Numbered from the stretch's first letter, positions 19,214 through 40,576 are shown. The stretch: 64,000 nt of DNA from Patescibacteria group bacterium (GCA_038063055.1 JBBTVY010000005.1:2444-66443), one strand, 5' to 3'. The notes: generated by a model from the sequence alone, not told the origin. Translations and numbers: made by a program.

Positions 19214-19214
19214 A

Positions 19215-20904: not shown

Positions 20905-20926
20905 GCCGACTAAACGCTGATTTCCA

Positions 20927-20965: not shown

Positions 20966-20995
20966 TCCGGCCGCAGATAACTCGCTCCTTTGAAT

Positions 20996-22258: not shown

Positions 22259-22345
22259 ATTATGAATACCATAACATAAAATCCCCGACCGAAAATAATG
22301 TCAGAAATCAGAACGCAAAAAAGTTTCATCGTGACAATTCCATAA

Positions 22346-23362: not shown

Positions 23363-23433
23363 AAATTCAACCCCGTGTATTTCCGGGGCTGAATCGAGGT
23401 TTTCGCGCCGCTGTCTTTCGGGACTCCCGTTTT

Positions 23434-26400
23434 TTATCCGGGAACTTGAGACCTAAGAATTTCGGACAATTGCTGCAACAGGCCGAGAAGCTTGACTTGT
23501 AGCGCCAAAACTTGGGCGTTGAGAGCTTCTCGGCTGGCCGAGGTCGTGCTGGCTCCGGCAACCTGACTGCCGTTCAGTCGCGCTCGGGTAAGCGGGCCGA
23601 CAAATCCAGTAGCGGAAATGCCGTATTTTTGCTGATAGGCCTTTACTCCTTTTTCGGTCAGCGGGCCGAAGTATCCCGTAACTCCTCCGGAATAAATTCC
23701 CTCTTCCGCGAGCCGTTTTTGAAGCTCCTCGACATCTGAACCGCGCGAGCCGACTTTAAGGTTTTGAGTGAACTGGAAGACAGAAACTCCGAGTACTTGT
23801 CCGGATGGCAAGGCGGAAGCAGGAACTGGAGTTGGGGCTTCTTGCGTCTGGATAAAACCACCGCCTCCGCCTCCTCCAGTGCCGCCACCGCCGCTATTGG
23901 CCGGAGGACCGCCTACCACCGGTCCTTGAGTGTATGTAGTGAAACTGGTGAAGTGCTTGGTCCAAATTACCAGGTCGGAACCAACGTCAATCTTGCAGTC
24001 CCCCGCCGTTCCAAGCTGGGCATCAACCGCCGCTTGGTTGTCCGCATCGCAAACGGTGGTTATGTTCGTGAACGCGCCACCGCGGGAATAACCCGCATAT
24101 TTGCCCGCCTGTCCCGCTATAAGAATTCTCACGGCTTTGCTAAAGAGCAATTCGGTGTCCCCATAACCAATTTCTATAACCGAGGATACATCAGCGGTGT
24201 TGCCGGGCAGAGGTACGGGGTTTACGCTTGAATTTGCTTTGACCTGCGGAAGGTTCACGATGCCTGTCCATTCGGAACCGCTCGGCGCAGTGATAGTCGT
24301 ACCGGACGAAATGGCTACACTGACATTCCCCACAGTTGTATCGGAATTCACGGTAATGGCAACTGGAAGAGTTGCCGAATCGCCGCTTTGAAGCGCGGCA
24401 ACATTGAGAGTTGCGTCATTAACATCTTCCGGCACCGTGATTGTTGAGTCGCCGACAACAGAACCGTCCACAACGGCTTCCGTAAAAGTTACATCGAGAG
24501 TCGTGCTGGGAGCAAGAATTACTTGGTCTTCTAAGAGAACATTAACAGTCACCGTATGCGTTCCCACCACCAAATTGTCAGCGGTATCCACCAGTTCGTA
24601 TGTAATGGTGTAGGAGCCGGCCGGTGCGTTGGAGTTGAATTTGATTTTGTCTGCGTTGGTGAAGACGTCGTTTGTAACCAATGAAAATCCGATATCGGTA
24701 GTGCAAGTATTGGGATCATCATGACCGCTCGGGAGTACCGCATCGCAGGAGCCGGTAGCGACTAAATCATTGCCAACTGCCGCAAGCGGATAATGATATG
24801 CGTCGGTTAAGGAATCAGTTTGATCTTTCCAACCGACTTCATCCAAGTCCACCATGTCGGCGGTAAGAGCCGATGGCCCGTTAACCGTCACTTTCCATTT
24901 GATGGTTTCGGGGTCTCCAGTTCCAATCGCAGGGCCGGTATAAGTTGTGGCGCGGCCGATGTATGCGTCACTGCCACGGGCAAGAGTTGAACCGATTTGA
25001 GGAGAAAAATCCACGTTGACATCAGCTGGGTCAGCGAGAGTGATGACAGAGGTAATAACCTCAACCGTTACCACATGCGTTCCCACCACCGAATTGTCAG
25101 CGGTATCCACCAGTTCGTATGTAATGGTGTAGGAGCCGGCCGGTGCGTTGGAGTTGAATTTGATTTTGTCTGCGTTGGTGAAGACGTCGTTCGCATCAAG
25201 CGAGAAGCCAACCAGAGTGGCGCAACCATTGTCGTGCAAGTCGGCGACATCGCAAGAGCCAGTTACGATAAGATTGACGCCCACTTGTGTAAATGGATAA
25301 TGGAATGTGCTCGCGACTATTCCGGCGCCGTCAGGGTCATTGAACCCGACTTCGTCTAAATCCACCATGTTCGGTGTAAGAACCCCAGGCCCGCTAACCG
25401 TCACTTTCCATTTGATGGAGTCAGTGTCTGCTCCGAGAACAGGGCCTGTGTAGGTCGTGGCGCGGCCGATGTATGCGTCACTGCCACGGGCAAGAGTGGT
25501 GTCGATTTGAGGAATGAAAATTTCACTGACTACAGTCGGATTCGCAATGGTGATGATGGCGGGATAAACAACTTCAATCGTTGCAGCGGTAAGTTCGTTG
25601 GAAACTGGACCGCTACCATTTGCATATACTAATTGGCGTTTAATTGTGTAAGTGCCGAGAGGCGCTAAGTTCGTAAATCTTATTCTATCTACATTGGTAA
25701 AATTATCATTAAGGTCAACCCCAAAGGAATCTACTGCTCCTCCTCCATGATCAGGTGTAGATTCAGAACCTTGCGCTACTAAAGTGCCGCTTCCCGTAAA
25801 TGGGTAATGGAAAGTTTCAATATTAGTGGTAACTAAATCTTTCCAACCAATCTCGTCTAAATCCACCATGCTGGAGACGAATCCCGCTGGACCTTCTATT
25901 GTAATTTTCCATTGAACACCTGGAATGATTTCAGCAAAACTTGAAACTGAATTAATGCTATAATAAGCATTTATGTTTTGAGCTAAGGGACTTTCAAGCG
26001 CCGGTTCAAATGTTGTAGCGTTAATTGTAAGATCATCAGGACTCGGTCGTGTTAGGGTAACTTCTCCCGTAACGTTCACATTTACGACGTAGGCATTACT
26101 TAATACAAAATCTGGGTCTGGAGATGTATTTACAAGTTCGTAGGTAATAATGTAATTACCCAGCGAAGCATTGGAATTGAATTTAATTTTGTCGGCGTTG
26201 GTGAAGACATCGTTTTCATCAAGCGAGAAGCCAATATCGGTCGCGCAATCGGTATGGTCGGTCATATCAACCGTATCGTCGCAGGAGCCGGTGGCAACAA
26301 GACTGCCATCCTCTTGTTCCATAAATGGATAATGGAATACATCGGTTGGGGCGGAGGAATCGGTTTGGTCAGTCCAACCAACCTCGTCCAAATCCACCAT

Positions 26401-27105
26401 GTCAGAGGTGAGAGCGGAAGGCCCGTTAACCGTCACTTTCCATTTGATGGAATCGGTCTCTGCTCCAAGAACAGGACCTATGTAGTTCGTGGTGCGGCCG
26501 AGATACGCTTCACTGCCCCGGGCAAGAGTGGTGTCGATTTGAGGAATGAAATCTTCATTGACATCAGCTGGATCGGCGGAAGCGATGGAGGCAACATACC
26601 CCTTTGTAGGTGTAGAAGTTATAGACCAAGAAGTGCCGTCGAAGACCGCGGACTGAACTACAGATGGCGCGGAAACGTCTACCCCGGGATCACTGCCGTA
26701 GCTAACGCTGTGAATGGGAGTGTCAGTGTCATCAAATATAGTAATCGTTTCCGTATCGGGAGTATTATTCAGCCAGCCGGAGGCGTGCTCAAAAACGACA
26801 ATGCCATTCGCTGGGATAGTGCCGAGGTCGGAAAGTAATTGAGGATTAGCTAAATCCTGAATAGTCCATCCAGTCAAATCAACCGGACTTGCGGTTGTAT
26901 TCAATAACTCCACCCATTCCGGGTCAGAAGCCGATGAAAATTCATTGATAACGACATCGCCATCGCCGGGGCTTACGGCAAAAACAGGCGTGTAAAAAAA
27001 GCCGCTCATTGCCACCAATGCCACGGCTGTAAAAATTAAAGCCGACTTTTTAATCTTGCTACCCCCCACTAATACGACACGAAACGCAGATTCAATCTGG
27101 TTCAT
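23434..27105 (-). CDS. Giant (1223 aa) cell-surface protein: signal peptide, lamin-tail domain, four ~175-aa tandem repeats, Gly-rich linker, PG_binding_1 domain, C-terminal coiled coil
   Basis: 'VVINEFSSASDPEWVELLNTTASPVDLTGWTIQD' is LTD-like. Repeats begin 'DFIPQIDTTLARGS.AY.GR'. 'GYFGPLTEKGVKAYQQKYGISATGFVGPLTRARL' is a peptidoglycan-binding domain. Confidence 0.7.
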   Translation of the reverse strand: MNQIESAFRVVLVGGSKIKKSALIFTAVALVAMSGFFYTPVFAVSPGDGDVVINEFSSASDPEWVELLNTTASPVDLTGWTIQDLANPQLLSDLGTIPANGIVVFEHASGWLNNTPDTETITIFDDTDTPIHSVSYGSDPGVDVSAPSVVQSAVFDGTSWSITSTPTKGYVASIASADPADVNEDFIPQIDTTLARGSEAYLGRTTNYIGPVLGAETDSIKWKVTVNGPSALTSDMVDLDEVGWTDQTDSSAPTDVFHYPFMEQEDGSLVATGSCDDTVDMTDHTDCATDIGFSLDENDVFTNADKIKFNSNASLGNYIITYELVNTSPDPDFVLSNAYVVNVNVTGEVTLTRPSPDDLTINATTFEPALESPLAQNINAYYSINSVSSFAEIIPGVQWKITIEGPAGFVSSMVDLDEIGWKDLVTTNIETFHYPFTGSGTLVAQGSESTPDHGGGAVDSFGVDLNDNFTNVDRIRFTNLAPLGTYTIKRQLVYANGSGPVSNELTAATIEVVYPAIITIANPTVVSEIFIPQIDTTLARGSDAYIGRATTYTGPVLGADTDSIKWKVTVSGPGVLTPNMVDLDEVGFNDPDGAGIVASTFHYPFTQVGVNLIVTGSCDVADLHDNGCATLVGFSLDANDVFTNADKIKFNSNAPAGSYTITYELVDTADNSVVGTHVVTVEVITSVITLADPADVNVDFSPQIGSTLARGSDAYIGRATTYTGPAIGTGDPETIKWKVTVNGPSALTADMVDLDEVGWKDQTDSLTDAYHYPLAAVGNDLVATGSCDAVLPSGHDDPNTCTTDIGFSLVTNDVFTNADKIKFNSNAPAGSYTITYELVDTADNLVVGTHTVTVNVLLEDQVILAPSTTLDVTFTEAVVDGSVVGDSTITVPEDVNDATLNVAALQSGDSATLPVAITVNSDTTVGNVSVAISSGTTITAPSGSEWTGIVNLPQVKANSSVNPVPLPGNTADVSSVIEIGYGDTELLFSKAVRILIAGQAGKYAGYSRGGAFTNITTVCDADNQAAVDAQLGTAGDCKIDVGSDLVIWTKHFTSFTTYTQGPVVGGPPANSGGGGTGGGGGGGFIQTQEAPTPVPASALPSGQVLGVSVFQFTQNLKVGSRGSDVEELQKRLAEEGIYSGGVTGYFGPLTEKGVKAYQQKYGISATGFVGPLTRARLNGSQVAGASTTSASREALNAQVLALQVKLLGLLQQLSEILRSQVPG
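24400..26560. repeat. Four tandem ~530-bp coding repeats inside the giant surface-protein gene
   Basis: Near-identical stretches, e.g. 'gtgaagacgtcgtt...ggtgtaggagccggccggtgcgttggagttgaatttgattttgtctgcgttggtgaagacgtcgtt', recur around 24600 and 25130 and more diverged around 26170. Confidence 0.7.
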
Positions 27106-27290
27106 ATAAATTTACTTATGGTTTATTATTGGCCTTTGCGTGAGAATACCCCCCCTAAAAGCCTGTCAAGGGAAAAGTGGTATAAGGGGTGTATAATTTG
27201 TGCATTAGTAAAACGCTTTTGAGATTCTGACAATAGGACTGATAGCGCAACAATACCTAATTTAAAATCCAATTTGGTATAATATTACGG

Positions 27291-27755
27291 ATGGTTAAAA
27301 AAGATATTATTATCGCTGCGGCGGCGATTGTCATCGTCGGAGCCGGCTGGCTGTTTTATTCCGGCCAGCGGCAGTTTGTTCAACAGGCAATAACCCAGCA
27401 AACGACGGATGTGTCGGCAAGTGCCGCGCAAGCTAAAAACTTAATAATAGGCCAGTTTAACGTAGCGATGGTGACTTATACCGATAAAGGCTTTTCGCCT
27501 TCGGTCGCTACGATACCAAAAGGAGGGGTGGTTATCTTCGGGAATTTTTCTTCAAAAAATCTGCGAATGGCTTCAAATCCGCACCCCTCGCACGAAGGAT
27601 ATCCGACCACGAACGGCTGCGTCGGAAGCACATTCGATTCATGTAGCAACATTCCTCCAAAAGTTTCCTGGTCGTTTATTTTCAACGTTACCGGCGCCTG
27701 GGGTTATCACAATCATTTAAATCCGGGCATGAGCGGGATAGTTGTGGTTGAATAG
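27291..27755 (+). CDS. Membrane-anchored cupredoxin-like domain protein (possibly degenerate copper site)
   Basis: N-terminal TM; 'FSPSVATIPKGGVVIFGNFS...NPHPSH' and C-terminal 'YHNHLNPGMSGIVVV' resemble a plastocyanin-like fold. Confidence 0.4.
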   Translation: MVKKDIIIAAAAIVIVGAGWLFYSGQRQFVQQAITQQTTDVSASAAQAKNLIIGQFNVAMVTYTDKGFSPSVATIPKGGVVIFGNFSSKNLRMASNPHPSHEGYPTTNGCVGSTFDSCSNIPPKVSWSFIFNVTGAWGYHNHLNPGMSGIVVVE

Positions 27756-27782
27756 CTGATTTTTAAAATTTTTGCGGCAAAG

Positions 27783-27815
27783 AAAAACGTTCCGACATCA
27801 GTCGGAACGTTTTTC
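27783..27815. terminator. Bidirectional rho-independent terminator
   Basis: 'aaaaacgttccgac atcag tcggaacgttttt'. Confidence 0.65.
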
Positions 27816-27838
27816 ACAATCAAGCTTGTTTATCCTGA

Positions 27839-28285
27839 TTAGCGCGTAATCGAAATGCTCTGTCCGAGTTCGGCCGCCGGCGCGTCAACAGTCACGCGGC
27901 TGGTGCTGCTGGACACAAAAACATTATAGCCCGCGTCGTAATCAGTAACGCTCGTCCAGTGGGCTCCGCTGGCCGACGGGTCGAAAGGCATGCTTGGCAA
28001 GTACGTTGGAACCAGACACCCGGCAATGTCATAAGTGCTTGTGGACATCTTAGTCGTGCTTGACGGAAGCGATCCGGCTGAGCACGTGAAAATTCCCCTG
28101 TTGTCGGCCATATTCTGCCCAATGCCGTTAAGTATGGCGAGAACGTTGGCCTGTCTTTGCGTGTTCCTGGCCTGGGCGAACTGTCTTGCCGGGTTCAAGG
28201 CAACGATAACTATCGCGGCCAGAATGGCGATAATTCCGATTACGACGAGAAGCTCTATCAAAGTAAAACCTTTTCTTGAATTCAT
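27839..28285 (-). CDS. Type IV pilin (candidate major pilin)
   Basis: Class III signal 'MNSRKG|FTLIELLVVIGIIAILAAIVIVALNPA'; internal start at 28285 preferred over the listed 28357. Confidence 0.7.
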   Translation of the reverse strand: MNSRKGFTLIELLVVIGIIAILAAIVIVALNPARQFAQARNTQRQANVLAILNGIGQNMADNRGIFTCSAGSLPSSTTKMSTSTYDIAGCLVPTYLPSMPFDPSASGAHWTSVTDYDAGYNVFVSSSTSRVTVDAPAAELGQSISITR

Positions 28286-28369
28286 AAAATTATCGAAATC
28301 TTTTGCGACCTTTTTATTAAGTGAATTATAACAAAAAAGCGGATAATTTTTATCCACAAGCCGCCATTT

Positions 28370-28771
28370 TCAGAAATTCGGCAATTCCTCCCACGATACG
28401 ATGGAAAGAGTGCTGGAATTGACGGCTACGCGAAGATTGGTGAATGAACTTTGAATTTGAGCCTGCGTCGAAATTACCTTCTGGGCCGTGCCGCTCGCGA
28501 CCACGGAAATTATCCGGCATGTGTCGCTCGCGACCGCGATTGTTTCGTTTCCGGAGTAAGAAGGATTCTGGGCGAGATTGAAAAAGGTTTTCTGGACGCA
28601 AGCCCTGGCAAGCGAATAACTCATTTCCTTGAAAGAACCCGTTGAAATGTTCAATCTGGCCAAAAAAGAACCCATGCTGATTACCAAAACAATCACGAAG
28701 AGCATAATGCTGATGAGAATTGCGGCGGTCACGGCGATATAACCTTTTTTGTTTTTTAAAAAATAAATCAC
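28370..28771 (-). CDS. Pilin-like/minor pseudopilin membrane protein
   Basis: N-terminal hydrophobic helix within the pilin operon; lacks the canonical G-F-T-L-I-E motif. Confidence 0.4.
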   Translation of the reverse strand: MIYFLKNKKGYIAVTAAILISIMLFVIVLVISMGSFLARLNISTGSFKEMSYSLARACVQKTFFNLAQNPSYSGNETIAVASDTCRIISVVASGTAQKVISTQAQIQSSFTNLRVAVNSSTLSIVSWEELPNF

Positions 28772-29304
28772 GGCAAGTAGATGGTGTTTTGGAGAGTTGT
28801 CGAAGCTTTTCTGATGTTTTCCGAAGTGGAAGCGACAATTGATATTGAAATCCGGACTGCCTCCGTTTGCGAACCGGACGGCGGAAAATGAGAAAAAAGC
28901 AGCTGGCTTACCGTCACGCTGCCGTTGGTCAGAGAAACAGGGGTTCCTGCGGCGCGGCTCAGCCGCGCCGTTCCCGAATACGCGTCGAACGTCAACGGAT
29001 TTTGCGAAAAGCCGTATTTATTCAAAGTCAAAACAGACGAAGTGGCGCCGACCGCGGGTTGAGAAACGCTTTGCGCGGAAGACAAAGCCCAGGTTATTTT
29101 TCTCATAAGGAAATCCGCTTCCGTCTCGACTTCGCGTCTCGCTCTGTTTTGCGATTCCGAAGAAAGAACCTGATAAAAAATTATTATGGAAAAACCGATT
29201 ACCATTGAGAACAAAGCCGAATAAAGCAAAGTTTCGATAAGAGTAAATCCGGCGGTTGGCGGAAAATTTTTAGCGTAGCCCCGGAGAATCCCGTTTTTTT
29301 TCAT
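28768..29304 (-). CDS. Type IV minor pilin
   Basis: 'PTAG|FTLIETLLYSALFSMVIGF' prepilin signal. Confidence 0.6.
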   Translation of the reverse strand: MKKNGILRGYAKNFPPTAGFTLIETLLYSALFSMVIGFSIIIFYQVLSSESQNRARREVETEADFLMRKITWALSSAQSVSQPAVGATSSVLTLNKYGFSQNPLTFDAYSGTARLSRAAGTPVSLTNGSVTVSQLLFSHFPPSGSQTEAVRISISIVASTSENIRKASTTLQNTIYLP

Positions 29305-29305
29305 T

Positions 29306-30727
<1,422 letters not shown>

Positions 30728-30804
30728 ATTTCCCCTAAATTATAAGACTTTTTTAATATTTTCAAATTCTATTTTCTATTTGCTACTTTCTAGATTCTAG
30801 TTTT

Positions 30805-31278
30805 TCACCAATCTATTCTGCCTTCCGAATTAACGCCGATGTCCAGCGACTTTATGCCGTTTGAAACGGAAATTGTTCCGGAAACGCTGGAGCCGGCGTC
30901 CAATGAAGAAAAGGTCAGCTCGTCCGGCCCGGTGAGATTCATGCCGCCCGTCCTGCTGAATATCTCGTCATAGGCGTTGTTTCTTGACGCATAGGTGTTG
31001 CCCTGGAAAATTACGTAACTTAAAGACAGGCCGAAATACACGCCGTGGTTCGATTGATTAACGTTATTTTGGGCTTCGTTGCGGGCTCTTTTAAGGACGG
31101 CCGCTATTGTTTCCCTTTCTGCCCCCAAAATCTTTTGTCTGTAAAAATCCATGCTGAAAATAAGGCCTAAAGAAAACAAAATGCCCATCAATCCGATGGC
31201 TATTAAAATTTCCCACAAAGTGAATCCCCCGCATAAATTCGTTATGTGGGGGATAAACCCCCTTTTATTCTTATCCAT
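30805..31278 (-). CDS. Pseudopilin (GspH/FimT-like minor pilin)
   Basis: 'GG|FTLWEILIAIGLMGILFSL'; start at 31278 (MDKNKRGF) or 31299. Confidence 0.55.
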   Translation of the reverse strand: MDKNKRGFIPHITNLCGGFTLWEILIAIGLMGILFSLGLIFSMDFYRQKILGAERETIAAVLKRARNEAQNNVNQSNHGVYFGLSLSYVIFQGNTYASRNNAYDEIFSRTGGMNLTGPDELTFSSLDAGSSVSGTISVSNGIKSLDIGVNSEGRIDW

Positions 31279-32356
31279 GTACGCCGGAAGTAACTTCATA
31301 AATCGGAGTGATAATCGAAAGAGCCACGAAACCGACGATTATTCCCATAACCAGAAGAAGAAGCGGTTCCAGAAGGCTCGTAAGGTTGCTGACCGTGATT
31401 CCGACTTCCTCGGAGTAGTATTCGGAAAGGTAAAAAAGATTGTCTTCGAGATTACCGGTGCTTTCCCCTATTTCGATGAGGCTTGAAAGAATCACCGGAA
31501 AAAGTTTTTTATCTTTGGAGATAAGGGCAACGAATTGCTCGCCTCGGCCCACGCTGTCGGCGGCATCAAGAAGAATTTTCCGGTAAACAAGATTGTCCAT
31601 CGTATAAGCGGTTACCTTAATGGCTTCAACTATTCTGACTCCGCTTTTCAGAAGCACGCCCATTGTCCTGGTGAAATTGGACATGGCGATGTTTATCGTC
31701 ATGGAAGAAATGACTGGGATGTAAAACAGAAACTTATGGAAAAAATATTTTATCGGCTGAAAGCGTATGGAAATCCTGAAGAGCGCGAAAACCGCCGCGA
31801 AACCGAGCGCCATAATCAACCAATAATTAAGCATGAAGTTGAAGACGGCGATGAGTATTTTTGTCGTCAGCGGCAATTCTATCCTGAGGCTCGAAAATAT
31901 CGGCAGGACTTTCGGGAAAATGGAAAACGTCAGAAGAGCCGTTATGCCGATTGTGGCCAGGAAAATTATTACCGGATAAACCATCGCGGAACGAATTTTA
32001 GTTTTAAGATCCTTGGATTTTTTCATTTCTTCGGACAAGTAAAGAAGATTCTGCGGAAGGGTGCCGCTTTGTTCGCCGATACGCACGATACTTACGAAAA
32101 AATCGTTGAAAATGTTTTTGTGTTTTTCAAGCACCTGCGCCAAAAATTGCCCGTTTTCCACGCCATCCATAAGGTCGCCGATTACCGCGTCCAGCGTTTT
32201 CGACTGGGTTTGCTTTTTCATTATCCTGAGAGCATCCATCAGAGGCAACCCGGCCCTGATGGTAAGGGAAAGATGGCGCGCGAAATTTATCTTTTCCTGG
32301 TCCGAAACGCGGCTGAAAATCCGGCTCCAGAAAAATTTTCCCCGTTTTTTATTCAT
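31271..32356 (-). CDS. pilC: Type IV pilus assembly platform protein PilC (GspF family)
   Basis: Two T2SSF-like halves and three TM regions; adjacent to pilB. Confidence 0.8.
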   Translation of the reverse strand: MNKKRGKFFWSRIFSRVSDQEKINFARHLSLTIRAGLPLMDALRIMKKQTQSKTLDAVIGDLMDGVENGQFLAQVLEKHKNIFNDFFVSIVRIGEQSGTLPQNLLYLSEEMKKSKDLKTKIRSAMVYPVIIFLATIGITALLTFSIFPKVLPIFSSLRIELPLTTKILIAVFNFMLNYWLIMALGFAAVFALFRISIRFQPIKYFFHKFLFYIPVISSMTINIAMSNFTRTMGVLLKSGVRIVEAIKVTAYTMDNLVYRKILLDAADSVGRGEQFVALISKDKKLFPVILSSLIEIGESTGNLEDNLFYLSEYYSEEVGITVSNLTSLLEPLLLLVMGIIVGFVALSIITPIYEVTSGVHG

Positions 32357-33578
32357 GTATTATTCTCAGAACTTCTTCTATCGTCGTGATTCCCTGTTTC
32401 GCTTTTTCAAGGCCATCTTGCAGCATCGTTGTCATTCCGGCGCGTACGGCTGCCTCCTTTATCTGCTGGGAGCTGGCGCGCGACATTATAAGGTCGCGTA
32501 TTTTTTCGTCTATTTCCAGAACTTCGCGTATGCCTATTCTACCCTCATAACCCGTATTGCCGCATTTATCGCAGCCAACGCCAACATAAAAAGTTTTCGT
32601 GTCGCCGATTTCCGGAATTATCTCTTTAAGGCTGGATAATTCCTCTTTGTTCATTGAGCGCCCGCTTTTACATTTCTGGCAAATAGTTCTGACAAGGCGC
32701 TGACCCATGGCGATGTTGACCGTCGAGGCCGCGAGAAACGGCGGAACACCCATGTCGATGAGGCGCGGAAAAGTAGTGGCGGCGTCGTTGGTGTGAAGAG
32801 TCGAAAGAACAAGGTGTCCGGTTAAAGAAGCGTTGACGGCGATATCGGCCGTTTCCTGGTCGCGGATTTCGCCGACCATAACCACGTTCGGGTCCTGGCG
32901 GAGAATGGAACGGAGGCCGTTGGCGAAGGTCAGCCCGACTTTATTGTCAACCTGAATCTGGGTCGTCCCCTCCAGTGAATATTCAATGGGGTCTTCTATG
33001 GTGATTATGGAAACTTCCGGGCTGTTAAGTTTTTTTAAAATCGTGTAGAGCGTTGTCGTTTTTCCGGAACCGGTCGGGCCGTTGGCGAGAATCATTCCGT
33101 ACGGCTTGGTCATTTCGCGTTTCACTTTTTCCAAATCTTTTTTGGCGAATCCCAAATCTTCAATGCTGAACGAGCTGGTTTCGGCAAGAATTCTGAGAAT
33201 GGCGTTTTCGCCGTAGTAAGTCGGCATTATGGAAACCCGGACATCAACGTTGCCAAATCCCTCTATTTCCACCCTGAAGCGGCCATCCTGCGGCAAAAGA
33301 TGTTCGTCGGTGCGAAGCCCCGACAGAACTTTGATGCGGCTGATAAACTCCTGATGGATGATTTTAGGAATCCCCTTTTCCAAAATGTCGCGGAGTATTC
33401 CGTCTATTCTGAAACGGAGCCGGACGGTTTCCGCCGTCGGTTCTATGTGTATGTCGGAAGCGCGCGAGCTGTAGGCGTATTCTATGAACAAATCTACGAC
33501 TTCAACCACGGAAACATCTTCGGCTTTGCCGGAGAGTTTCTTTTCAATCAACGTCCTGATAGTTTTTATGTCACGCAT
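32349..33578 (-). CDS. pilB: Type IV pilus assembly ATPase PilB/GspE (core only, no N-terminal GSPII domains)
   Basis: Walker A 'GPTGSGKTT'; His box; C-terminal tetra-Cys 'CQKC...CDKC'. Confidence 0.85.
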   Translation of the reverse strand: MRDIKTIRTLIEKKLSGKAEDVSVVEVVDLFIEYAYSSRASDIHIEPTAETVRLRFRIDGILRDILEKGIPKIIHQEFISRIKVLSGLRTDEHLLPQDGRFRVEIEGFGNVDVRVSIMPTYYGENAILRILAETSSFSIEDLGFAKKDLEKVKREMTKPYGMILANGPTGSGKTTTLYTILKKLNSPEVSIITIEDPIEYSLEGTTQIQVDNKVGLTFANGLRSILRQDPNVVMVGEIRDQETADIAVNASLTGHLVLSTLHTNDAATTFPRLIDMGVPPFLAASTVNIAMGQRLVRTICQKCKSGRSMNKEELSSLKEIIPEIGDTKTFYVGVGCDKCGNTGYEGRIGIREVLEIDEKIRDLIMSRASSQQIKEAAVRAGMTTMLQDGLEKAKQGITTIEEVLRIIHE

Positions 33579-33624
33579 TGGATTTTGTTAAGTTTATTAT
33601 AACACACAAAGAGGACAAAAAGAG

Positions 33625-33652
33625 CCCGATGTCGGGGCTTTTTAAAAATTCG
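33625..33652 (-). terminator. Possible terminator hairpin between ftsX and pilB
   Basis: 'gagcccgatgtcggggcttttt'. Confidence 0.4.
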
Positions 33653-33672
33653 ACGCGATTTTGGCGGCAAAA

Positions 33673-34581
33673 TCAGTTTTTAAGATAGCGCCTTACCGCT
33701 ATGAAACTCGAAAGTCCGCCTATCACGGCCGCGAGAAGAACCTGGTACATCGTCAGCCTAAAAACGCTTGAAGCAAAATAATTGAAAACATTAAGCTGCG
33801 GTATGAAGGAATTAAGATATGGCGAAGCCAAATAAATAATCGGCGCTGAAATTATCACGCTGGAAAGCGCGGCTATGACTCCGCCGACCACTCCCTCGAC
33901 TATATACGGACCGCGCACGAGGCCGTTGGAAGCCCCGACCGACCGCATTATGCCTATTTCATCGCGGTTCGAATATATGGCCAGGCGTATCGTGTTGAAA
34001 ACGACAAGTCCGGCCACCAGCGCTATGGTTATCGTCAAAACGATTCCGCCGCGGCTGACGTTCTGGATAATGGCGTTAAGCCTTTCTATAGCCAGCTGGT
34101 TTTTGGCGTAGCTGACGCTGTCCACGAATTTTTTCAAATCGGGAGCGTTGAAATAATCCGCGATAGCCGCGTACTGGTTCGGCTTCTTCGCCCTTATATT
34201 AAGAGAGGCCTCCAATGGATTGCTGTTAAGTTCGCTGATGGCCTGACTGATGGTCTGGTCGTCGCTGTGCTTGCTTTTGAAAATCTCCAGCGCCTGGTCG
34301 CTCGACACGTATTCGACGTTTTTAACTTCCGCCATGTTTTCAAGCGAATTTTTTATGTTAAGTATCTCGTCTTCCGGCGCGTTGGTTTTGAAATAAACGC
34401 TGATGTCTATTTTGTCCTGAATGGAAACCAGCGCCTCCTGCGTCACAAAATTGAAAATAATCAAGCCCATCGAGACGAGCAGCGCCAAAATCATGATTGC
34501 GACCGTGGCCGCGGACAGCCAGCCGTTCCTCCAGAAGTTTTTCATCCCGTATTGAAATATTCTTGAAATGACAGTGAACAT
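33673..34581 (-). CDS. ftsX: Cell-division ABC transporter permease FtsX
   Basis: 4-TM FtsX topology with a large extracellular loop; follows ftsE. Confidence 0.75.
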   Translation of the reverse strand: MFTVISRIFQYGMKNFWRNGWLSAATVAIMILALLVSMGLIIFNFVTQEALVSIQDKIDISVYFKTNAPEDEILNIKNSLENMAEVKNVEYVSSDQALEIFKSKHSDDQTISQAISELNSNPLEASLNIRAKKPNQYAAIADYFNAPDLKKFVDSVSYAKNQLAIERLNAIIQNVSRGGIVLTITIALVAGLVVFNTIRLAIYSNRDEIGIMRSVGASNGLVRGPYIVEGVVGGVIAALSSVIISAPIIYLASPYLNSFIPQLNVFNYFASSVFRLTMYQVLLAAVIGGLSSFIAVRRYLKN

Positions 34582-34630
34582 TAATTTAACAATTAGTTAA
34601 TTGAGCAATTGCGCAATTGCTTCTCTTTTA

Positions 34631-35314
34631 TTATACCAATATGTATTTTCCTTTTTCCTCGTCCCTTATTATTCTGCCTCTGTCTATCGTCACGACGCGC
34701 TTGCCGAGGTCGTTGATTATGTCTTTGTCGTGGGTCGCGAGAATCAGCGTCGTCCCGAGTTCATTTATCTTCTTCAGAAGCGCGATAATTTCGGATGTGT
34801 GAAAAGGGTCGAGATTTCCCGTCGGCTCGTCGGCGATGATAACTTCAGGCCGGTTGACCATGGCGCGCGCGATGGCGACCCTCTGCTGTTCGCCGCCTGA
34901 AAGTTCGTGCGGGAAGTTTTTAAACTTGTCGCTGAGGCCGACCATCTCGAGAACCTGCGGCACCATTTCTTTTATTTCGCTCTGCAGCCTGCCTGCGGCT
35001 TCCATGGCGAAAGCGACGTTTTCGTAGGTATTCTTGTTTGACAAAAGCCGGAAATCCTGGAAGACGACTCCGATATGACGCCTGAAAAGCGGAAGTTTAT
35101 GGTCGTCAAGTTTGTTCACTTCGTACTGTCCGAAAAATATGCGGCCGCGAGTCGGTTTTTCTTCGCCTATCAATAGCTTGATGGCTGTGGATTTTCCGGC
35201 CCCGGAACGTCCAACTAAACAAACAAATTCCCCCGGATTTATCCTGAGATTGAAGTCTTCAAGGGCCACCGAGTGGCTGTTATAGATTTTAAATATCGAT
35301 TGAAAGGCAATCAT
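34631..35314 (-). CDS. ftsE: Cell-division ABC transporter ATPase FtsE
   Basis: 'GRSGAGKST', '[14 protein letters not shown]', '[11 protein letters not shown]'. Confidence 0.85.
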
Positions 35315-35405
35315 AATGGGCGAGAATCTAGAAGCTAGAAAATGGAATCTAGAAACGATTTAACTCTCGTATTATAACCTAATTCAGATAAATTTATCAA
35401 CTTGA

Positions 35406-36460
35406 TTACAATTTTTCCACTTCTGCCTCGATAAAAACGTCTAAATTGCCGTTTAGCACTTCGTCCACCTGCGTCGTTTCGGCCTCCGTCCTGTGGTCTT
35501 TTACGAGCTTATACGGATTCATCACATAAGAGCGTATCTGGCTGCCCCATTCGGGTTTGACGTTGACGCGGAGGTTGGCCAGTTCTTCAACCTTGTGCTT
35601 TTCCATAAGTTGCGAGAGTTTGGATTTCAATAAGCTCAAGGCGCGCTGGCGGTTTTGTTCCTGCGAGCGTTCCGCGCGCGAACCAGCCGACAATCCCGTC
35701 GGAATATGGACTATTCTGACGGCGGTTTCAACTTTGTTGACGTTCTGTCCGCCTGGGCCCCCGGAACGTGAAAATTCCAGCTTCAAATCCTTTTCAGGAA
35801 TTTCTATTTTAGATTCTTCCACCGCGGGAAGTTCAGGCGTCACTTCAACCAGAGCGAAAGAAGTGTGCCGCAATTGTTTTGACGAAAACGGCGAAACTCT
35901 TACCAGCCGGTGGACGCCTGATTCGCCTTTCAAATATCCGAAAGCGTACTCCCCTTTTATTTCGAGCGTCCGCCGATTCGGCGTGTCGTCCAAAACTTCG
36001 GCTTTCCATCCGCGCCTGACCGCGTAGCTCTTGTACATATCAAAAAGCATCAAAGCCCAGTCGCCGGCGTCCTCTCCTCCCGCGCCGGGATAAACCGAGA
36101 CTACCGCCGTTTCTTTGTCGTACTTGCCCTTGAAAAGTTCCACGAGTTCCAGCTGCCTGAATTTTCTTTTGGCTTCGTGAAATTTATTTATGGTAAGCGG
36201 AGTCGAACCACTTTTGTTCAATTCCTTCTCGAGTTCTTCGATTAAATTTTCCACTTCGCGGTGACGCTTTATCAAAGCATCGAGCTCGCCGAAAGTTTTT
36301 ATTTTTTCGTCCGCCGTTTGCCTGTTCAGCCAAAAATCAGGCCGCGACATTCCGGCTTCGATTTCGTTCTTCAGTTTTTCTTTTCCGGCGACGTCAAAGC
36401 CGGCCGCCTAAACGGCGGCATTCGGTTTTAAGCTCCTGTAATTCTTGTTTGATATCCATG
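35406..36460 (-). CDS. prfB: Peptide chain release factor 2 with programmed +1 ribosomal frameshift (CUU UGA C) at about 36393..36399
   Basis: Frame 0 '[21 protein letters not shown]' then UGA. The +1 frame continues '[22 protein letters not shown]...' into the listed ORF. 'SPF' and 'GGQ' motifs present. Confidence 0.85.
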
Positions 36461-36466
36461 GGGAGA

Positions 36467-36712
36467 TTATAGTTCTTTTTTAATTTGATTCCAATCAACT
36501 TCGCTTATCTCTTCTAATTCTTTGAGTACATATTTTAAAGTTTGTTTGGGCAGATAAAAAGGAATAGTTACGGATTTCTGATTTCTCGGCCATATTGCTT
36601 TAAAATGGCTTCCGTTTCCGCCAACTTTATTAATTTCAAAACCTACCCTTTGCAGGGCTTTACAAAAACGATTCTGCTTAATTTCTCCAGGTAATTCACT
36701 AAGCGAGGGCAT
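36467..36712 (-). CDS. hicA: HicA-family mRNA interferase toxin
   Basis: YcfA/HicA-like 'LQRVGFEINKVGGNGSHFKAIWP...VTIPF'. Confidence 0.6.
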   Translation of the reverse strand: MPSLSELPGEIKQNRFCKALQRVGFEINKVGGNGSHFKAIWPRNQKSVTIPFYLPKQTLKYVLKELEEISEVDWNQIKKEL

Positions 36713-37025
36713 AGGCGTTCTGCCGTTCCCCTTCCCTAATTATTGCTGCCTCTTTTTTGTAAGAAGAAGGAACTTCGAATGAAGTCAAAATCGCATCTCT
36801 CACGTTTTTATCGAGTTCTTCCAAATTACGCCCATGGGCAATTATGCTGCCGTATTTAAAATTAGTACTAACAGAAACTATAAGACCATCGTCTTTATGA
36901 TTTTTGAATTCAATCGCGCCATACTGCCTGAAATATTTATTAAGCTCATAAAGCCCGCTGGGAACGACCGCCTTCCCCAACAAAACCTTTATCGCCTTGT
37001 CTTTTGCTACTTTAATTAAGTTCAT
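36699..37025 (-). CDS. hicB: HicB-family antitoxin (RNase H-like N-terminal domain)
   Basis: UPF0150-like 'YGAIEFKNHKDDGLIVSVSTNFKYGSIIAHGRNLEELDKNVRDAI'; 14-nt overlap with hicA. Confidence 0.5.
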   Translation of the reverse strand: MNLIKVAKDKAIKVLLGKAVVPSGLYELNKYFRQYGAIEFKNHKDDGLIVSVSTNFKYGSIIAHGRNLEELDKNVRDAILTSFEVPSSYKKEAAIIREGERQNAYALA

Positions 37026-37235
37026 TTATGGTGAGCTATGTCGAACTATTAGATGCTCTTTAATACGACCTAATTTAATATATGTCAATGCAATTTCTAT
37101 TTATTTTAAATTATAGCATATTCTATTCGCTTAGTCCTTGCTTGAGGTCCATGGGGAGATTATACATAAATTGTTGGATTTTGAAAGTTATAAAAATGAA
37201 GCAGGCATTGCCGAGTTCAGATATCTCGGTCAGAT

Positions 37236-37994
37236 TTAATTTTGAACCTTATAATCGTGGATGACGGCATCATCTGGCAAGGAAGAAATATCAAAGCCCG
37301 CTTCATTATAAGTTATAATTCTTTGTAGTTCTGTTTTATCAATGGGCTTTTTTTGGATTATTTTTCCAAAAATAATGCAGTTTGGATGCCAAACTCCCGG
37401 ATCACCATTTGTCACTTGTAAATGTAGGGCGATGGCGTGGTGATTTTTTTCAGCTTTTACGGTTTTGACAGCGATGCTCTGAGGCAAAATTTCTGATACT
37501 CTAGTAAAATCAAGTTCTACCGAAAGCTCGTAAAAACTGATTTGTGGGCATTGCACACTTTCCCATTCGAAAATTATCAAATCCTCACTTTCCCTTTTTG
37601 TTGCCAAATTATATTTAGGCAGATATTCACGTGGAGCTGGGGTAAAAACACAATGCAGGCGAAACCCATGCTCGTTAAATGGTTGAGGCTCGACTTCTTC
37701 TATCAGGTGTTCTTCCTTGCTTCCAATGCTTCTCCTTTTTAAATAAAGACGTTTTGGGTGAATAGAAAGGTGAATTTCCTCACCATTTTCGACTACCCGT
37801 TTTTTTAATTTGTTTGTAGAAAAATCGCCGAAAGATCTCAATAAATGAAACGGTTCAGCAACGTCGAGCGGAGTTTTTTCGTCTGCGAGATGGTTATATA
37901 AGAAATAACTTCCGTCCTTTCCTGAATAAAAAATGGACAAAAACTTGTAATAATCTTTTTTGGTTTTTAGGAGAACGATTATTCTTTTTCTCAT
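37236..37994 (-). CDS. Hypothetical protein (252 aa) between tRNA-Ile and hicAB
   Basis: ORF only; no recognisable motif. Confidence 0.45.
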   Translation of the reverse strand: MRKRIIVLLKTKKDYYKFLSIFYSGKDGSYFLYNHLADEKTPLDVAEPFHLLRSFGDFSTNKLKKRVVENGEEIHLSIHPKRLYLKRRSIGSKEEHLIEEVEPQPFNEHGFRLHCVFTPAPREYLPKYNLATKRESEDLIIFEWESVQCPQISFYELSVELDFTRVSEILPQSIAVKTVKAEKNHHAIALHLQVTNGDPGVWHPNCIIFGKIIQKKPIDKTELQRIITYNEAGFDISSLPDDAVIHDYKVQN

Positions 37995-38061
37995 AATAGT
38001 AGCATGGTCAGTTTCATAATATCCTAGAGTGGAAATGGTATCTCGATGAAAATATCGTTTG

Positions 38062-38134
38062 TGGGCCAGGAAGGACTCGAACCTTCGATCCTCAAGGTAT
38101 AAGCTTGATGCTTTAGCCGCTAAGCTACTGGCCC
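38062..38134 (-). tRNA. tRNA-Ile with UAU anticodon (reads AUA)
   Basis: Clean cloverleaf GGGCCAG/CTGGCCC, anticodon stem TCAAG/CTTGA, loop CTTATAC (U33, A37), T-loop TTCGAGT, A73. Confidence 0.7.
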
Positions 38135-38144
38135 AAAACTGAGA

Positions 38145-39980
<1,836 letters not shown>

Positions 39981-40162
39981 TTATTTAAAAAGTTTGGGTT
40001 AAATGAAACAGTAAGATTTTAACTTAATTTATGGACGCCGTCAAAAAAAGCAGTAGTCCGCTCCGGGCGGATCACTTATCGGAAAAAACAATGGCTCTTC
40101 GCGGAAAACTTCCCGCGAAGAGCCGGAACATACTGGCGCCCCAAACAGGTAAAGGGCTTGCC

Positions 40163-40576
40163 TTACTGCCCGACAAACACCGGGGTGTTGTAGGCCTTCT
40201 GGGCAAGCTGATGGCCTCGAACCGTAGCCACTTCTTCGCAAACGGCATCATAAAAAACGAGTCCGACGCCGAAATTGATTGCCTGAGCGATAAGTCCGCC
40301 ACCGGGAACAGAAAAACCCCACGTCTCCGTTACGGACAGTATGCCAATGACCGCGCAGAACACGAAGCATAGTTCGCTTACCAGGAAATACAATGCGGGC
40401 AAGTTCTTGTTGATAGTGCCCCCGCCGATATCCAGGAGGATTTTGAACGTTGACTCCGGCCGGAATTTTTCGTCCGGCGCGAAAAAGAGCAGCCACGACG
40501 CAAGAGCGATTGACGCCAAAATCAGCGCCGGACTGGCCAAAAAAGCCAGCAACAGCAAAAACTCATTCATATTCAT
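40163..40576 (-). CDS. Hypothetical membrane protein
   Basis: Hydrophobic ORF; competing ORFs on the same span judged less plausible. Confidence 0.35.
   Translation of the reverse strand: MNMNEFLLLLAFLASPALILASIALASWLLFFAPDEKFRPESTFKILLDIGGGTINKNLPALYFLVSELCFVFCAVIGILSVTETWGFSVPGGGLIAQAINFGVGLVFYDAVCEEVATVRGHQLAQKAYNTPVFVGQ

What the first reader, a model, noticed from the sequence alone, without database searches (positions are those of the whole stretch)
27839..33578. Type IV pilus operon with a pilin fused to an LVIVD beta-propeller
pilB and pilC are followed by five pilin or pseudopilin genes. One (29306..30727) has a prepilin-like N-terminus followed by at least four LVIVD repeats, a propeller typical of surface adhesins. 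This candidate tip adhesin carries the heptamer tract at its 5' end. No PilD, PilT or PilMNO gene is in the window. FtsEX and prfB lie immediately upstream. CPR bacteria are thought to use type IV pili for host attachment and DNA uptake.
Basis: partly seen in the sequence, partly recalled or inferred. Interest (0 to 1): 0.5.

Follow-up and report, generated by a model that had tools for sequence, protein, structure and literature searches.

The report
Pilus operon with propeller-bearing minor pilin
A groundwater ultra-small (CPR) bacterium carries a compact seven-gene type IV pilus cassette in which one minor pilin has a seven-bladed LVIVD beta-propeller, most likely shown at the pilus tip; the protein family is large and conserved but unstudied, and the design itself is already known.

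Summary
On the minus strand, 33578..27839 encodes PilB, PilC, four minor pilins and one major pilin. The 473-aa protein (30727..29306) has these parts:
- a 20-residue leader ending in Gly
- a mature end QSALE with Glu5
- a Gly-rich linker

Gene order is the same in all related loci (79 species) that reach far enough, all Paceibacteria-type CPR genomes. The fourth minor pilin never has Glu5 (0/51), as in the cap subunit GspK.

Best reading: an H-I-J-K-like priming and tip complex whose "I" subunit carries a ligand-binding propeller. The ligand is unknown. Strong conservation of the propeller argues for a conserved ligand.

The design is known. LVIVD-bearing pilins were catalogued in 2021, and a propeller-bearing minor pilin of Saccharibacteria is needed for efficient host binding. 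I file this as a new member of a known kind.

No PilD, PilT or PilMNO gene lies in the window.

The heptamer tract is the 3' arm of a hairpin that brackets the start codon. It is one of many heptamer-periodic junction hairpins in these genomes, a feature I found no paper describing. I found no evidence of phase variation.

The parts
32349..33578 (-). pilB: assembly ATPase of the GspE/PilB family, short form of 409 aa
   Evidence: Pfam T2SSE, E 5.5e-124, residues 19-405. TIGR02533 and TIGR02538 match only from their positions 98 and 171 onward, so the usual N-terminal region of GspE/PilB is absent. Both scores fall below the equivalog cut-offs.
31271..32356 (-). pilC: platform protein, 361 aa
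   Evidence: Pfam T2SSF, two stretches, E 1.5e-46. GspF TIGR02120 E 4.2e-81. It overlaps pilB by 8 nt.
30805..31278 (-). Minor pilin 1 (157 aa), weak GspH/FimU-like hits, G|FTLWE
   Evidence: TIGR02532 19.5 bits against a cut-off of 16.3. Weak GspH (TIGR01708, 1.7e-4) and PRK10506 (9e-5) hits. The start is as called on the source contig. Orthologues carry G|FTLIE.
30767..30806 (-). 5' arm of the hairpin: five degenerate heptamers (cTAGAAt cTAGAAa gTAGCAa aTAGAAa aTAGAAt), starting at the stop codon of minor pilin 1
   Evidence: TRF period 7, 5.3 copies. Inverted repeat I4: 36 nt, 81% complementary to 30679..30714.
29306..30727 (-). LVIVD pilin, 473 aa. Leader 1-20 (30727..30668), GspI/PilV-class pilin module 21-131 (30667..30335), Gly-rich linker 132-150 (30334..30278), seven-bladed LVIVD propeller 151-473 (30277..29309).
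30680..30711 (-). 3' arm of the hairpin: perfect tandem heptamer (TTCTACT/CTACTTT), 4.6 copies, translated as leader residues 6-16 (ILLSTFYFLLS)
   Evidence: TRF 100% matches, score 64. Zero of 100 shuffles give a match. It pairs with 30767..30806 in the minimum-energy fold: -33.4 kcal/mol, z -3.4.
28768..29304 (-). Minor pilin 3 (178 aa), G|FTLIE, at the position of GspJ/PilW
   Evidence: N_methyl is weak here (18.3 bits) but hits 43 of 50 orthologues. Glu5 is present in 50/50. hhalign against E. coli GspJ matches only the N-terminal helix.
28370..28771 (-). Minor pilin 4 (133 aa), G|YIAVT, no Glu5: candidate cap subunit in the manner of GspK/PilX
   Evidence: Gly-1 in 51/51. Position +5 is never acidic (0/51). 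Two Cys are invariant. PilX_N is hit in only 2 of 51 orthologues. hhalign against E. coli GspK is not significant.
28325..28357 (-). Terminator-like hairpin (28357..28339, then a T run) followed by an extended -10-like TGTTATAAT (28333..28325), just ahead of the major pilin gene
   Evidence: The hairpin is listed. The -10 motif is read directly from the sequence. That the major pilin has its own promoter is an inference.
27839..28285 (-). Major pilin (148 aa), MNSRKG|FTLIELLVVIGIIAILAA
   Evidence: N_methyl 36.6 bits, E 2.8e-9. TIGR02532 33.9 bits. It sits at the end of the cassette in all loci.
27783..27814 (-). Intrinsic-terminator-like hairpin after the major pilin gene (AAAACGTTCCGAC-TGAT-GTCGGAACGTTTTTCTTT)
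   Evidence: Read directly from the sequence. The scan did not list it, probably because A-T pairs extend the stem into the T run.

Best explanation
This is a self-contained type IV filament cassette of a Paceibacteria-type CPR bacterium from groundwater. It holds PilB (motor), PilC (platform), four minor pilins and one major pilin.

**Proposed mechanism (inferred).** The four minor pilins correspond by gene order to the H-I-J-K (FimU-PilV-PilW-PilX) set. That set primes assembly on the platform and then sits at the filament tip.
- The second minor pilin is a GspI/PilV-class pilin module. A flexible Gly-rich linker ties it to a seven-bladed LVIVD beta-propeller.
- After a prepilin peptidase encoded elsewhere cleaves at Gly20, this pilin would join the Glu5-less 133-aa cap subunit and the other two minor pilins in the priming complex.
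- Polymerisation of the separately promoted major pilin underneath would push this complex outward. The propeller would then be displayed at or near the tip as the ligand-binding module.

**What it binds.** This is unknown. Because the propeller is so conserved, I expect a widely shared ligand such as a cell-wall glycan or other envelope polymer of host cells, or DNA, rather than a strain-specific receptor.

**Shown:** gene content, domain architecture, folds, signal motif, synteny. **Inferred:** incorporation into the filament, tip position, binding function.
For: **Machinery and pilins.**

**Class III signal.**
- Gly-1 28/30, Gln+1 28/30, Glu/Asp5 29/30.
- Distant orthologues have the canonical G|F(S/T)TLE.

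**Folds.**

**Synteny.** The order pilB-pilC-minor-LVIVD-minor-minor-major is the same in every one of the 79 loci that has enough flank.

**Glu5 pattern.** The 133-aa pilin has Gly-1 in 51/51 and never an acidic +5, while the 178-aa pilin has Glu5 in 50/50. By my own knowledge this matches GspK, the Glu5-less cap of the GspI-J-K tip complex.

**Separate expression of the major pilin.** A terminator-like hairpin plus an extended -10 motif precede its gene.

**Precedents.**
- TM7x PilX2, a minor pilin with a seven-bladed propeller, is needed for efficient host binding but not for filament extrusion (PMC11623550).
- Modular pilins are argued to be tip-exposed (PMC8179133).
Against: - No experiment or co-fold places this protein in a filament.
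- The H/I/J/K assignment of the other three minor pilins rests on gene order, the Glu5 pattern and weak hits only. hhalign against E. coli GspJ and GspK matches at most the N-terminal helix.
- The window protein itself fails the N_methyl cut-off (14.4 against 21.2 bits) and the PilV cut-off (22.2 against 52.2 bits).
- Gln at +1 is unusual.
- No prepilin peptidase, PilT or PilMNO was found in the window, in 10 kb beyond its start, or near the related loci.
- The propeller is the most conserved part: mean 59% identity against 48-52% for the pilin module. The whole protein is about as conserved as PilC. This is unlike typical fast-evolving adhesins.
Confidence: 0.6

Rival explanations
1. The cassette builds a DNA-uptake (competence-type) or other short pseudopilus rather than an adhesive pilus. 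The conserved propeller would bind DNA or a cell-wall polymer of the cell itself.
For: - No pilT lies in or near the cassette, in the window or in the related loci except L050.
- PilB is a short form of 409 aa.
- The propeller is highly conserved across orders whose hosts presumably differ.
Against: - The precomputed Pfam calls show no ComEA or ComEC-type family next to the cassette in the window or in L002, L005 and L008.
- ComGA and ComGB models score much lower than GspE/PilB and GspF/PilC models.
- In TM7x the propeller-bearing pilus did not contribute to competence (PMC11623550).
- The YncE similarity is the generic seven-blade fold.
Confidence: 0.2
2. The class III signal serves only as an export and membrane-anchor device. 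The propeller is then a cell-surface protein that is never polymerised into a filament, as with the sugar-binding proteins of the archaeal bindosome.
For: - LVIVD propellers occur with many different anchors.
- There is a weak match to the 'choice-of-anchor B' model TIGR04312 (34.4 bits, cut-off 100).
- The profile also hits thousands of non-pilin LVIVD surface proteins, up to about 7,000 aa long.
Against: - The gene sits at a fixed position between two minor pilin genes in all 79 loci.
- The module has a GspI-like fold.
- Glu5, which matters for subunit packing in filaments, is conserved.
Confidence: 0.1
3. The in-frame perfect heptamer tract makes the gene phase-variable. Gain or loss of one 7-nt unit by slipped-strand mispairing would shift the frame and switch the tip protein off and on.
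For: - The tract has 4.6 perfect copies of a unit that is not a multiple of three, inside the ORF.
- Period-7 arrays are the dominant tandem repeat in these genomes, so expansion does happen: 18 arrays against 0-4 for every other period from 4 to 14.
- By my own knowledge, 7-bp repeats control the HMW adhesins of Haemophilus influenzae.
Against: - The copy number is the same in every assembly found: four contigs with the identical protein, plus one contig from another sample.
- Orthologous arrays are mostly degenerate, which is poor substrate for slippage.
- A similar perfect array sits inside the fmt gene at 2970..3005, which is unlikely to be a contingency locus.
- Four copies is short for efficient slippage.
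- The tract has a complementary partner upstream, which points to a structural role.
Confidence: 0.1

Closest known systems
PilX2 of Nanosynbacter lyticus TM7x (Saccharibacteria), PMC11623550
   Same: It is a CPR minor pilin with a C-terminal seven-bladed beta-propeller and a non-canonical signal. It is encoded among other minor pilins next to a small major pilin. It is needed for efficient host binding but not for filament extrusion.
   Different: Its propeller has RCC1 repeats. Here the repeats are LVIVD, and no RCC1 family appears at E 0.1 or better. The TM7x pilin locus is separate from its pilB/pilC locus, whereas here all seven genes form one cassette. I could not obtain the PilX2 sequence, so homology was not tested.
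Modular type IV pilins (S. sanguinis PilB with vWA, PilC with a lectin), including the IPR012902-IPR013211 architecture in Dataset S1 of PMC8179133
   Same: [quoted passage not shown] Dataset S1 lists 30 pilins with one or more IPR013211 repeats, including a Falkowbacteria protein. IPR013211 is the LVIVD repeat (PMC10210494).
   Different: That catalogue required a recognised IPR012902 motif. The G|QSxLE subfamity found here scores below the N_methyl threshold and would largely be missed. The paper called the motif 'of unknown function' and did not analyse fold, gene context or pilin class.
GspI/EpsI/XcpV within the GspI-GspJ-GspK tip complex of type II secretion; PilV of type IVa pili
   Different: GspI and PilV are small single-module proteins. 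Sequence models fall below their cut-offs (PilV 22.2 against 52.2 bits). There is no secretin or other type II secretion gene here.
PilY1 (Pseudomonas, Myxococcus) and PilC1/PilC2 (Neisseria)
   Same: A seven-bladed propeller shown at the pilus tip through the core minor pilins. It acts as adhesin and priming factor (my own knowledge; also discussed in PMC8179133 and PMC11623550).
For the heptamer element: intergenic repeat hairpins of the REP/BIME type, and 7-bp repeat phase switches such as the hmw promoters of H. influenzae (both from my own knowledge)
   Same: Imperfect hairpins at gene junctions, present many times per genome, some as near-identical copies. Tandem 7-nt units.
   Different: The arms are built of tandem heptamers, and the unit differs between junctions and between species while the two arms stay complementary. 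One arm can lie inside a coding region, namely a prepilin leader. No copy-number variation was seen.

Membership tests
Type IV pilin (class III signal peptide) | Leader peptide ending in Gly at -1 | tested here: met
   MKKPNILLSTFYFLLSRRFG|Q. Gly is present in 28 of 30 aligned homologues.
Type IV pilin (class III signal peptide) | Glu at +5 of the mature protein, followed by about 20 hydrophobic residues | tested here: met
   QSALEILVAIGILAISLSAAIIVI. Glu or Asp at +5 in 29/30. Distant orthologues have G|F(S/T)TLE.
Type IV pilin (class III signal peptide) | Long N-terminal helix packed on an antiparallel sheet | tested here: met
Type IV pilin (class III signal peptide) | Curated sequence model (PF07963 N_methyl / TIGR02532) above its cut-off | tested here: not met
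   N_methyl scores 14.4 bits against a cut-off of 21.2, and TIGR02532 is not listed. The likely reason is Gln in place of Phe at +1. One homologue (P0099) has PF07963 on record.
Type IV pilin (class III signal peptide) | Cleavage and N-methylation by a prepilin peptidase (PilD, Peptidase_A24) | not testable with these tools
   No A24 peptidase appears in the window, in 10 kb beyond its start, or within 10 kb of the related loci. The rest of the genome could not be read.
LVIVD repeat beta-propeller (PF08309 / IPR013211) | Pfam model above the gathering score | tested here: met
   67.3 bits against 20.2, with 4 stretches. Six motif strands are found by pattern, and I read a seventh at 464-472.
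LVIVD repeat beta-propeller (PF08309 / IPR013211) | Beta-propeller fold | tested here: met
Core minor pilin of the GspI/PilV class | Fold closest to GspI/EpsI/XcpV | tested here: met
Core minor pilin of the GspI/PilV class | Equivalog sequence model (TIGR02523 PilV, TIGR01707 GspI) above its cut-off | tested here: not met
   PilV scores 22.2 bits against a cut-off of 52.2. GspI is not listed.
Core minor pilin of the GspI/PilV class | Encoded within a set of four minor pilin genes in H-I-J-K order, the last lacking Glu5 | tested here: inconclusive
   The order and the Glu5 pattern fit. The identities of the H, J and K partners rest on weak hits: GspH 1.7e-4, and PilX_N in 2 of 51 orthologues. 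hhalign against GspJ and GspK matches only the N-terminal helix or nothing.
PilY1/PilC tip adhesin family | PilY1/PilC-type C-terminal propeller domain (IPR008707) | tested here: not met
Complete type IVa pilus machinery | PilB and PilC plus PilM/N/O, PilT and PilD | tested here: not met
   Only PilB and PilC are present in the window and next to the related cassettes. This says nothing about the rest of the genome.
Phase-variable simple-sequence contingency locus | Repeat-number differences between closely related genomes or reads | tested here: inconclusive
   All five assemblies found carry four full copies. These are consensus assemblies, and four were found through the identical protein, so minority alleles would not be seen.

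The most novel reading that the evidence does not exclude
The heptamer tract may be one instance of an undescribed class of elements in Paceibacteria. These are hairpins at gene junctions whose two arms are complementary arrays of tandem heptamers.

- The unit sequence drifts between junctions and between species, but the arms stay complementary.
- The 3' arm is often translated, and it appears repeatedly in the dispensable leader peptides of prepilin genes.
- If functional, the elements could set the relative expression of cistrons through translational coupling, or through RNA processing or stability.
- At this gene they could tune, or through 7-nt slippage switch, production of the propeller-bearing tip pilin.
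Probability: 0.3. Interest if true: 0.6.

Novelty: new member of a known kind. Interest (0 to 1): 0.4.

Why it matters
CPR bacteria are thought to live attached to other cells, and pili are their best candidate for first contact. For the very large Paceibacteria (Parcubacteria) branch there is no genetic system and no named adhesin.

This work defines a conserved seven-gene cassette. It singles out one conserved, soluble, well-modelled domain (residues 151-473) that can be expressed and tested on glycans, cell walls or DNA. The same domain could serve as a bait or label to find hosts.

The strong conservation of the propeller suggests a ligand shared across many hosts.

Separately, the heptamer-periodic junction hairpins are a genome-wide feature for which my literature search found no description. 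They may bear on how these small genomes regulate genes within operons.

Tried and rejected
- **Copy-number variants of the tract.** I scanned metagenome contigs with the two flanks and a variable gap. It returned one further contig with the same four copies, so there is no sign of slippage.
- **Naming the other minor pilins.** hhalign of the 178-aa and 133-aa families against E. coli GspJ and GspK matched only the N-terminal helix or nothing. Pfam scans of 50-51 orthologues gave N_methyl and two weak PilX_N hits.
- **Missing machinery.** tblastn with E. coli GspO, GspL and GspM against the window and all loci gave no hits. A second GspE-like gene appeared only in L050. The query is distant, so sensitivity is limited. 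A look-up with the EF-G-sized protein at the far end of the window found nothing on record.
- **Rfam.** At gathering scores it found only three tRNAs in the window and nothing at the hairpins.
- **Invertible promoter of the fimS type.** I considered this for the inverted arms and rejected it. Only about 55 bp lie between the arms, the arms are 81% complementary, no family in the precomputed Pfam calls nearby looks like a recombinase, and the same kind of hairpin sits at ribosomal-protein junctions.
- **HutP-like protein reading UAG every 7 nt.** The 5' arm in the window fits that pattern. I rejected it as a general explanation because other species use unrelated units such as GCGAAGA, AGCTTAT and AACATAG.
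- **Literature.** No paper in the library joins LVIVD with pilins in a relevant way. None joins heptamer repeats with CPR.


Full report
**1. Source and setting**

The window is the reverse complement of part of a 194,945-bp contig from Hainich groundwater (ENA ERZ1292629, Hain_H43_01um_R1_12). The 473-aa protein is identical to an NCBI entry named 'hypothetical protein AAB536_01310 [Patescibacteria group bacterium]'. Its closest named relatives are Candidatus Liptonbacteria, at 69% identity.

**2. Observation check**

Seven genes run head to tail on the minus strand from 33578 to 27839.
- PilB (409 aa): T2SSE, E 5.5e-124.
- PilC (361 aa): two T2SSF stretches, E 1.5e-46.
- Five genes with prepilin-type N-termini follow: 157 aa (G|FTLWE), 473 aa (G|QSALE), 178 aa (G|FTLIE), 133 aa (G|YIAVT) and 148 aa (MNSRKG|FTLIELLVVIGIIAILAA; N_methyl 36.6 bits).

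The last gene starts at ATG 28285, not at the GTG of the longest ORF.

LVIVD (PF08309) is well above threshold in the 473-aa protein: 67.3 against 20.2 bits, with 4 stretches.

ftsX, ftsE and prfB lie directly upstream.

Precomputed Pfam calls for window 325..58117 list no prepilin peptidase, no second T2SSE ATPase and no PilM/N/O. The remaining 6 kb looks like the rpsL-rpsG-fusA-tuf region by ORF size and order; no family search was run on it, but tblastn covered it. tblastn with E. coli GspO, GspL and GspM finds nothing in the window or in any related locus. Nothing relevant lies in the 10 kb of contig beyond the window start.

**3. Anatomy of the 473-aa protein**

*Start and leader.* ATG 30727 is preceded by AGGGGA at a 4-nt spacing. 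No other in-frame start lies before the cleavage motif. Residues 1-20 (MKKPNILLSTFYFLLSRRFG) form the leader.

*Signal motif.* In 30 aligned homologues Gly-1 is kept in 28, Gln+1 in 28 and Glu/Asp+5 in 29. More distant orthologues, at 30-35% identity and in the same gene position, have the textbook G|F(S/T)TLE. This is therefore a true class III signal in which one subfamily has replaced Phe+1 by Gln. That replacement is probably why the N_methyl model scores only 14.4 bits here.

*Full-length model (AF2 with a 30-sequence alignment, mean pLDDT 85.4).*
- Helix 23-77.
- A four-stranded sheet, 85-131.
- A low-confidence Gly-rich linker (conserved GGDTGGGG).
- 28 strands from 151 to 472, which make seven four-stranded blades. 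Most of this region has pLDDT above 90.

*Motif strands.* Six blades carry a recognisable LVIVD-type strand (ADFFIVNAT, AQLQIMDIT, PEFHIVDVS, GELMIFDVS, SDFVIINVS, KEFQIWNIS). I read DAVRIITSA at 464-472 as the seventh.

**4. Family and synteny**

- The word-indexed search found 403 homologues. The best 120 are all full-length, 47-100% identical, and nearly all unnamed.
- An exhaustive profile search found 7,445 representatives at E 1e-30 or better. Many of these are giant multi-propeller LVIVD surface proteins. Roughly 100 of the best 150 are full-length pilin-LVIVD proteins of 430-590 aa.
- A scan of one genome per species returned 79 loci. Those carrying a taxon name are Lipton-, Jorgensen-, Wolfe-, Brenner-, Azam-, Falkow-, Uhr-, Veblen-, Adler- and Nomurabacteria.
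- In every locus with enough flank the order is pilB, pilC, minor pilin, LVIVD pilin, minor pilin, minor pilin, major pilin.
- Identity to the window runs 50-83% for PilB, 36-74% for PilC and 28-75% for the LVIVD pilin. It is lower for the other minor pilins.
- Within the LVIVD pilin the propeller is the best conserved part: mean 59% identity, against 48-52% for the pilin module and 26% for the leader.
- The 178-aa family has Glu5 in 50/50. The 133-aa family has Gly-1 in 51/51, never an acidic residue at +5, and two invariant Cys.

**5. Most likely mechanism**

The four minor pilins sit in the order of the H-I-J-K (FimU-PilV-PilW-PilX) set.
- The first gives weak GspH hits.
- The second is structurally GspI-like.
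- The fourth lacks Glu5. By my own knowledge this is the hallmark of GspK, the subunit that caps the GspI-J-K tip complex and has no subunit above it to pair with.

I infer that these four proteins form the priming complex on PilC. Major pilin subunits then polymerise beneath it, and the propeller, on its flexible linker, ends up at or near the filament tip.

The major pilin gene is set apart by a terminator-like hairpin (28357..28339) and an extended -10-like TGTTATAAT (28333..28325). A strong terminator-like hairpin follows it (27814..27783). This fits high, separate expression of the major subunit.

The ligand is unknown. The high conservation argues for something widely shared, such as a glycan or other envelope polymer, or DNA, rather than a strain-specific receptor.

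Rivals:
- A DNA-uptake or other pseudopilus (0.2).
- A pilin-type signal used only as an anchor (0.1).
- A phase-variable adhesin (0.1).

**6. The heptamer tract**

*In the window.* The perfect period-7 array at 30680..30711 is complementary to five degenerate heptamers at 30767..30806. Those begin at the stop codon of the upstream gene. The inverted repeat is 36 nt long, 81% complementary, with 56 nt between the arms. The predicted RNA hairpin (-33.4 kcal/mol, z -3.4) leaves the Shine-Dalgarno sequence and the AUG in its loop.

*In the orthologues.*
- In 47 of 63 loci the upstream stop and the cleavage-site codon are 50 nt apart or less, so there is no room for such an element.
- In 16 loci, the window included, the distance is 88-184 nt (529 nt in one).
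- Of those 16, eight fold with z of -3 or lower, and ten show period-7 signal of at least 16/21.
- The unit differs between species, for example GCGAAGA paired with TCCTCGC in L028. AGCTTAT, AACATAG, GGTAAGT and ATTATGA occur elsewhere. The arms stay complementary throughout.

*Across the genomes.*
- Over 1.17 Mb of related loci, period 7 accounts for 18 tandem arrays, against 0-4 for every other period from 4 to 14.
- At a looser threshold there are 35 arrays. Of these, 46% have a complementary partner within 200 nt, against 1% of random segments.
- Many arrays lie in or just before the leaders of the other prepilin genes of the cassette.

*Elsewhere in the window.*
- The same kind of hairpin sits at ribosomal-protein gene junctions. 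At the junction of the S7-sized and EF-G-sized ORFs it uses the same NTAGAAN unit.
- A repeated hairpin built on ACGAATATACGAAT occurs at four places.
- A perfect array lies inside fmt.

*Reading.* The tract is therefore not special to this gene. It is one copy of a genome-wide class of junction hairpins, tolerated here because the leader peptide is cleaved off. Both perfect coding arrays have about 4.5 copies, which is one unit plus a 21-nt in-frame expansion. I found no copy-number variation, no Rfam family and no paper describing such elements in CPR. A role in translational coupling or in RNA processing or stability is a hypothesis only.

**7. Comparison with what is known**

- Modular pilins, meaning a pilin module plus a grafted functional module, were defined by Raynaud et al. 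(PMC8179133). Their Dataset S1 lists 30 proteins with IPR012902 followed by one or more IPR013211 repeats. IPR013211 is the LVIVD repeat (PMC10210494). They mention a Falkowbacteria case and call the motif of unknown function.
- In Saccharibacteria TM7x, the minor pilin PilX2 carries a seven-bladed RCC1 propeller. It has a non-canonical signal and is needed for efficient host binding, but not for filament extrusion (PMC11623550).
- PilY1 and PilC are tip-associated propeller proteins but are not pilins. No PilY1/PilC-type family matches here.

The present locus is thus a new, well-defined member of a known kind. The additions made here are:
- the GspI/PilV class of the carrier module
- the seven-blade count
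- the G|QSxLE signal variant, which escapes the standard model
- the invariant seven-gene cassette across Paceibacteria
- the Glu5-less fourth pilin

**8. Verdict**

- Observation: confirmed.
- Interpretation: supported, with 'tip adhesin' remaining an inference.
- Novelty: new member of a known kind.
- Interest: 0.4. This is carried partly by the usable prediction (a conserved, expressible candidate binding domain for an uncultured major lineage) and partly by the unexplained heptamer-periodic hairpins.

Noticed in passing
window 62135..62229, 56862..56936, 53994..54081, 51815..51933, 58606..58703, 62709..62828, 6839..6882: Long imperfect hairpins fill the spacers between ribosomal-protein and translation-factor-sized genes, and one sits ahead of a bAvd-like gene. 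Several have arms made of tandem heptamers. At the junction of the S7-sized and EF-G-sized ORFs the unit is NTAGAAN, the same as at the LVIVD pilin gene.
   Followed up: partly
window 44962..44975, 50643..50692, 54013..54062, 58629..58680: A repeated intergenic hairpin built on ACGAATATACGAAT...ATTCGTATATTC occurs at four places. Two copies share about 80 nt almost exactly. The core gives 9 matches against 0.8 expected. It looks like a REP-type or miniature mobile element.
   Followed up: partly
window 2970..3005 and 45430..45463: A perfect heptamer array (AAATTCC, 4.4 copies) lies in frame inside the fmt gene (methionyl-tRNA formyltransferase), coding ENSKFQIPNSKI. An 85%-matching array lies inside a CobA/CobO/BtuR-family gene. 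The same AAATTC unit appears in pilin leaders of other species (L010, L016).
   Followed up: partly
L013, L016, L017, L025, L028, L032, L052, L066, L019 (coordinates): In several species heptamer arrays lie in or next to the leader-coding parts of the other prepilin genes of the cassette. This gives repetitive leader peptides, for example MLLKFLTGFIKLIKLTKLIKLMKLKTNKG| in L025.
   Followed up: partly
window 36459..35406: prfB has the classical programmed +1 frameshift. ATG is at 36459 and there are 21 codons before CTT TGA C at 36399..36393. The 314-aa ORF listed mechanically is the downstream part only.
   Followed up: yes
window 6476..6853 and 9915..10274: Two small genes match the 23S_rRNA_IVP/bAvd families, which are accessory proteins of diversity-generating retroelements. 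They sit next to large surface-protein genes, including a 702-aa Cohesin-domain protein. No family in the precomputed Pfam calls for the window looks like a reverse transcriptase. A similar gene lies near the cassette in L002.
   Followed up: no
window 16418..27105: The cassette is followed by a run of predicted surface or secreted proteins. These are a 1,223-aa protein with a lamin-tail domain, internal long repeats and a C-terminal peptidoglycan-binding domain; a CAP-domain protein; an S8 peptidase; and a 931-aa Laminin_G_3 protein. One cytoplasmic DEAD-box helicase gene is interspersed.
   Followed up: no
window 36467..37025: A small gene pair lies between prfB and the next gene. The downstream member is a HicA-type toxin (81 aa). 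The overlapping 108-aa upstream partner has no family hit.
   Followed up: no
window 38061..38134: A tRNA-Ile with anticodon TAT (UAU), which by my own knowledge is uncommon in bacteria.
   Followed up: no
L033 9596..11410 (protein P0111, 604 aa): In one Jorgensenbacteria genome a response-regulator receiver domain is in frame with the LVIVD pilin with no stop between them, and the source names the product 'response regulator'. This is either a real fusion or a lost stop codon. A separate receiver gene follows the cassette in L002.
   Followed up: no
L010, L013, L014 and many other loci: Many MAG records titled 'uncultured Candidatus Saccharibacteria bacterium' or 'uncultured Gammaproteobacteria bacterium' carry this cassette, at up to 75% identity to the window and with the same gene order as the Liptonbacteria loci. 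The titles look like placeholder names and should not be read as taxonomy.
   Followed up: no
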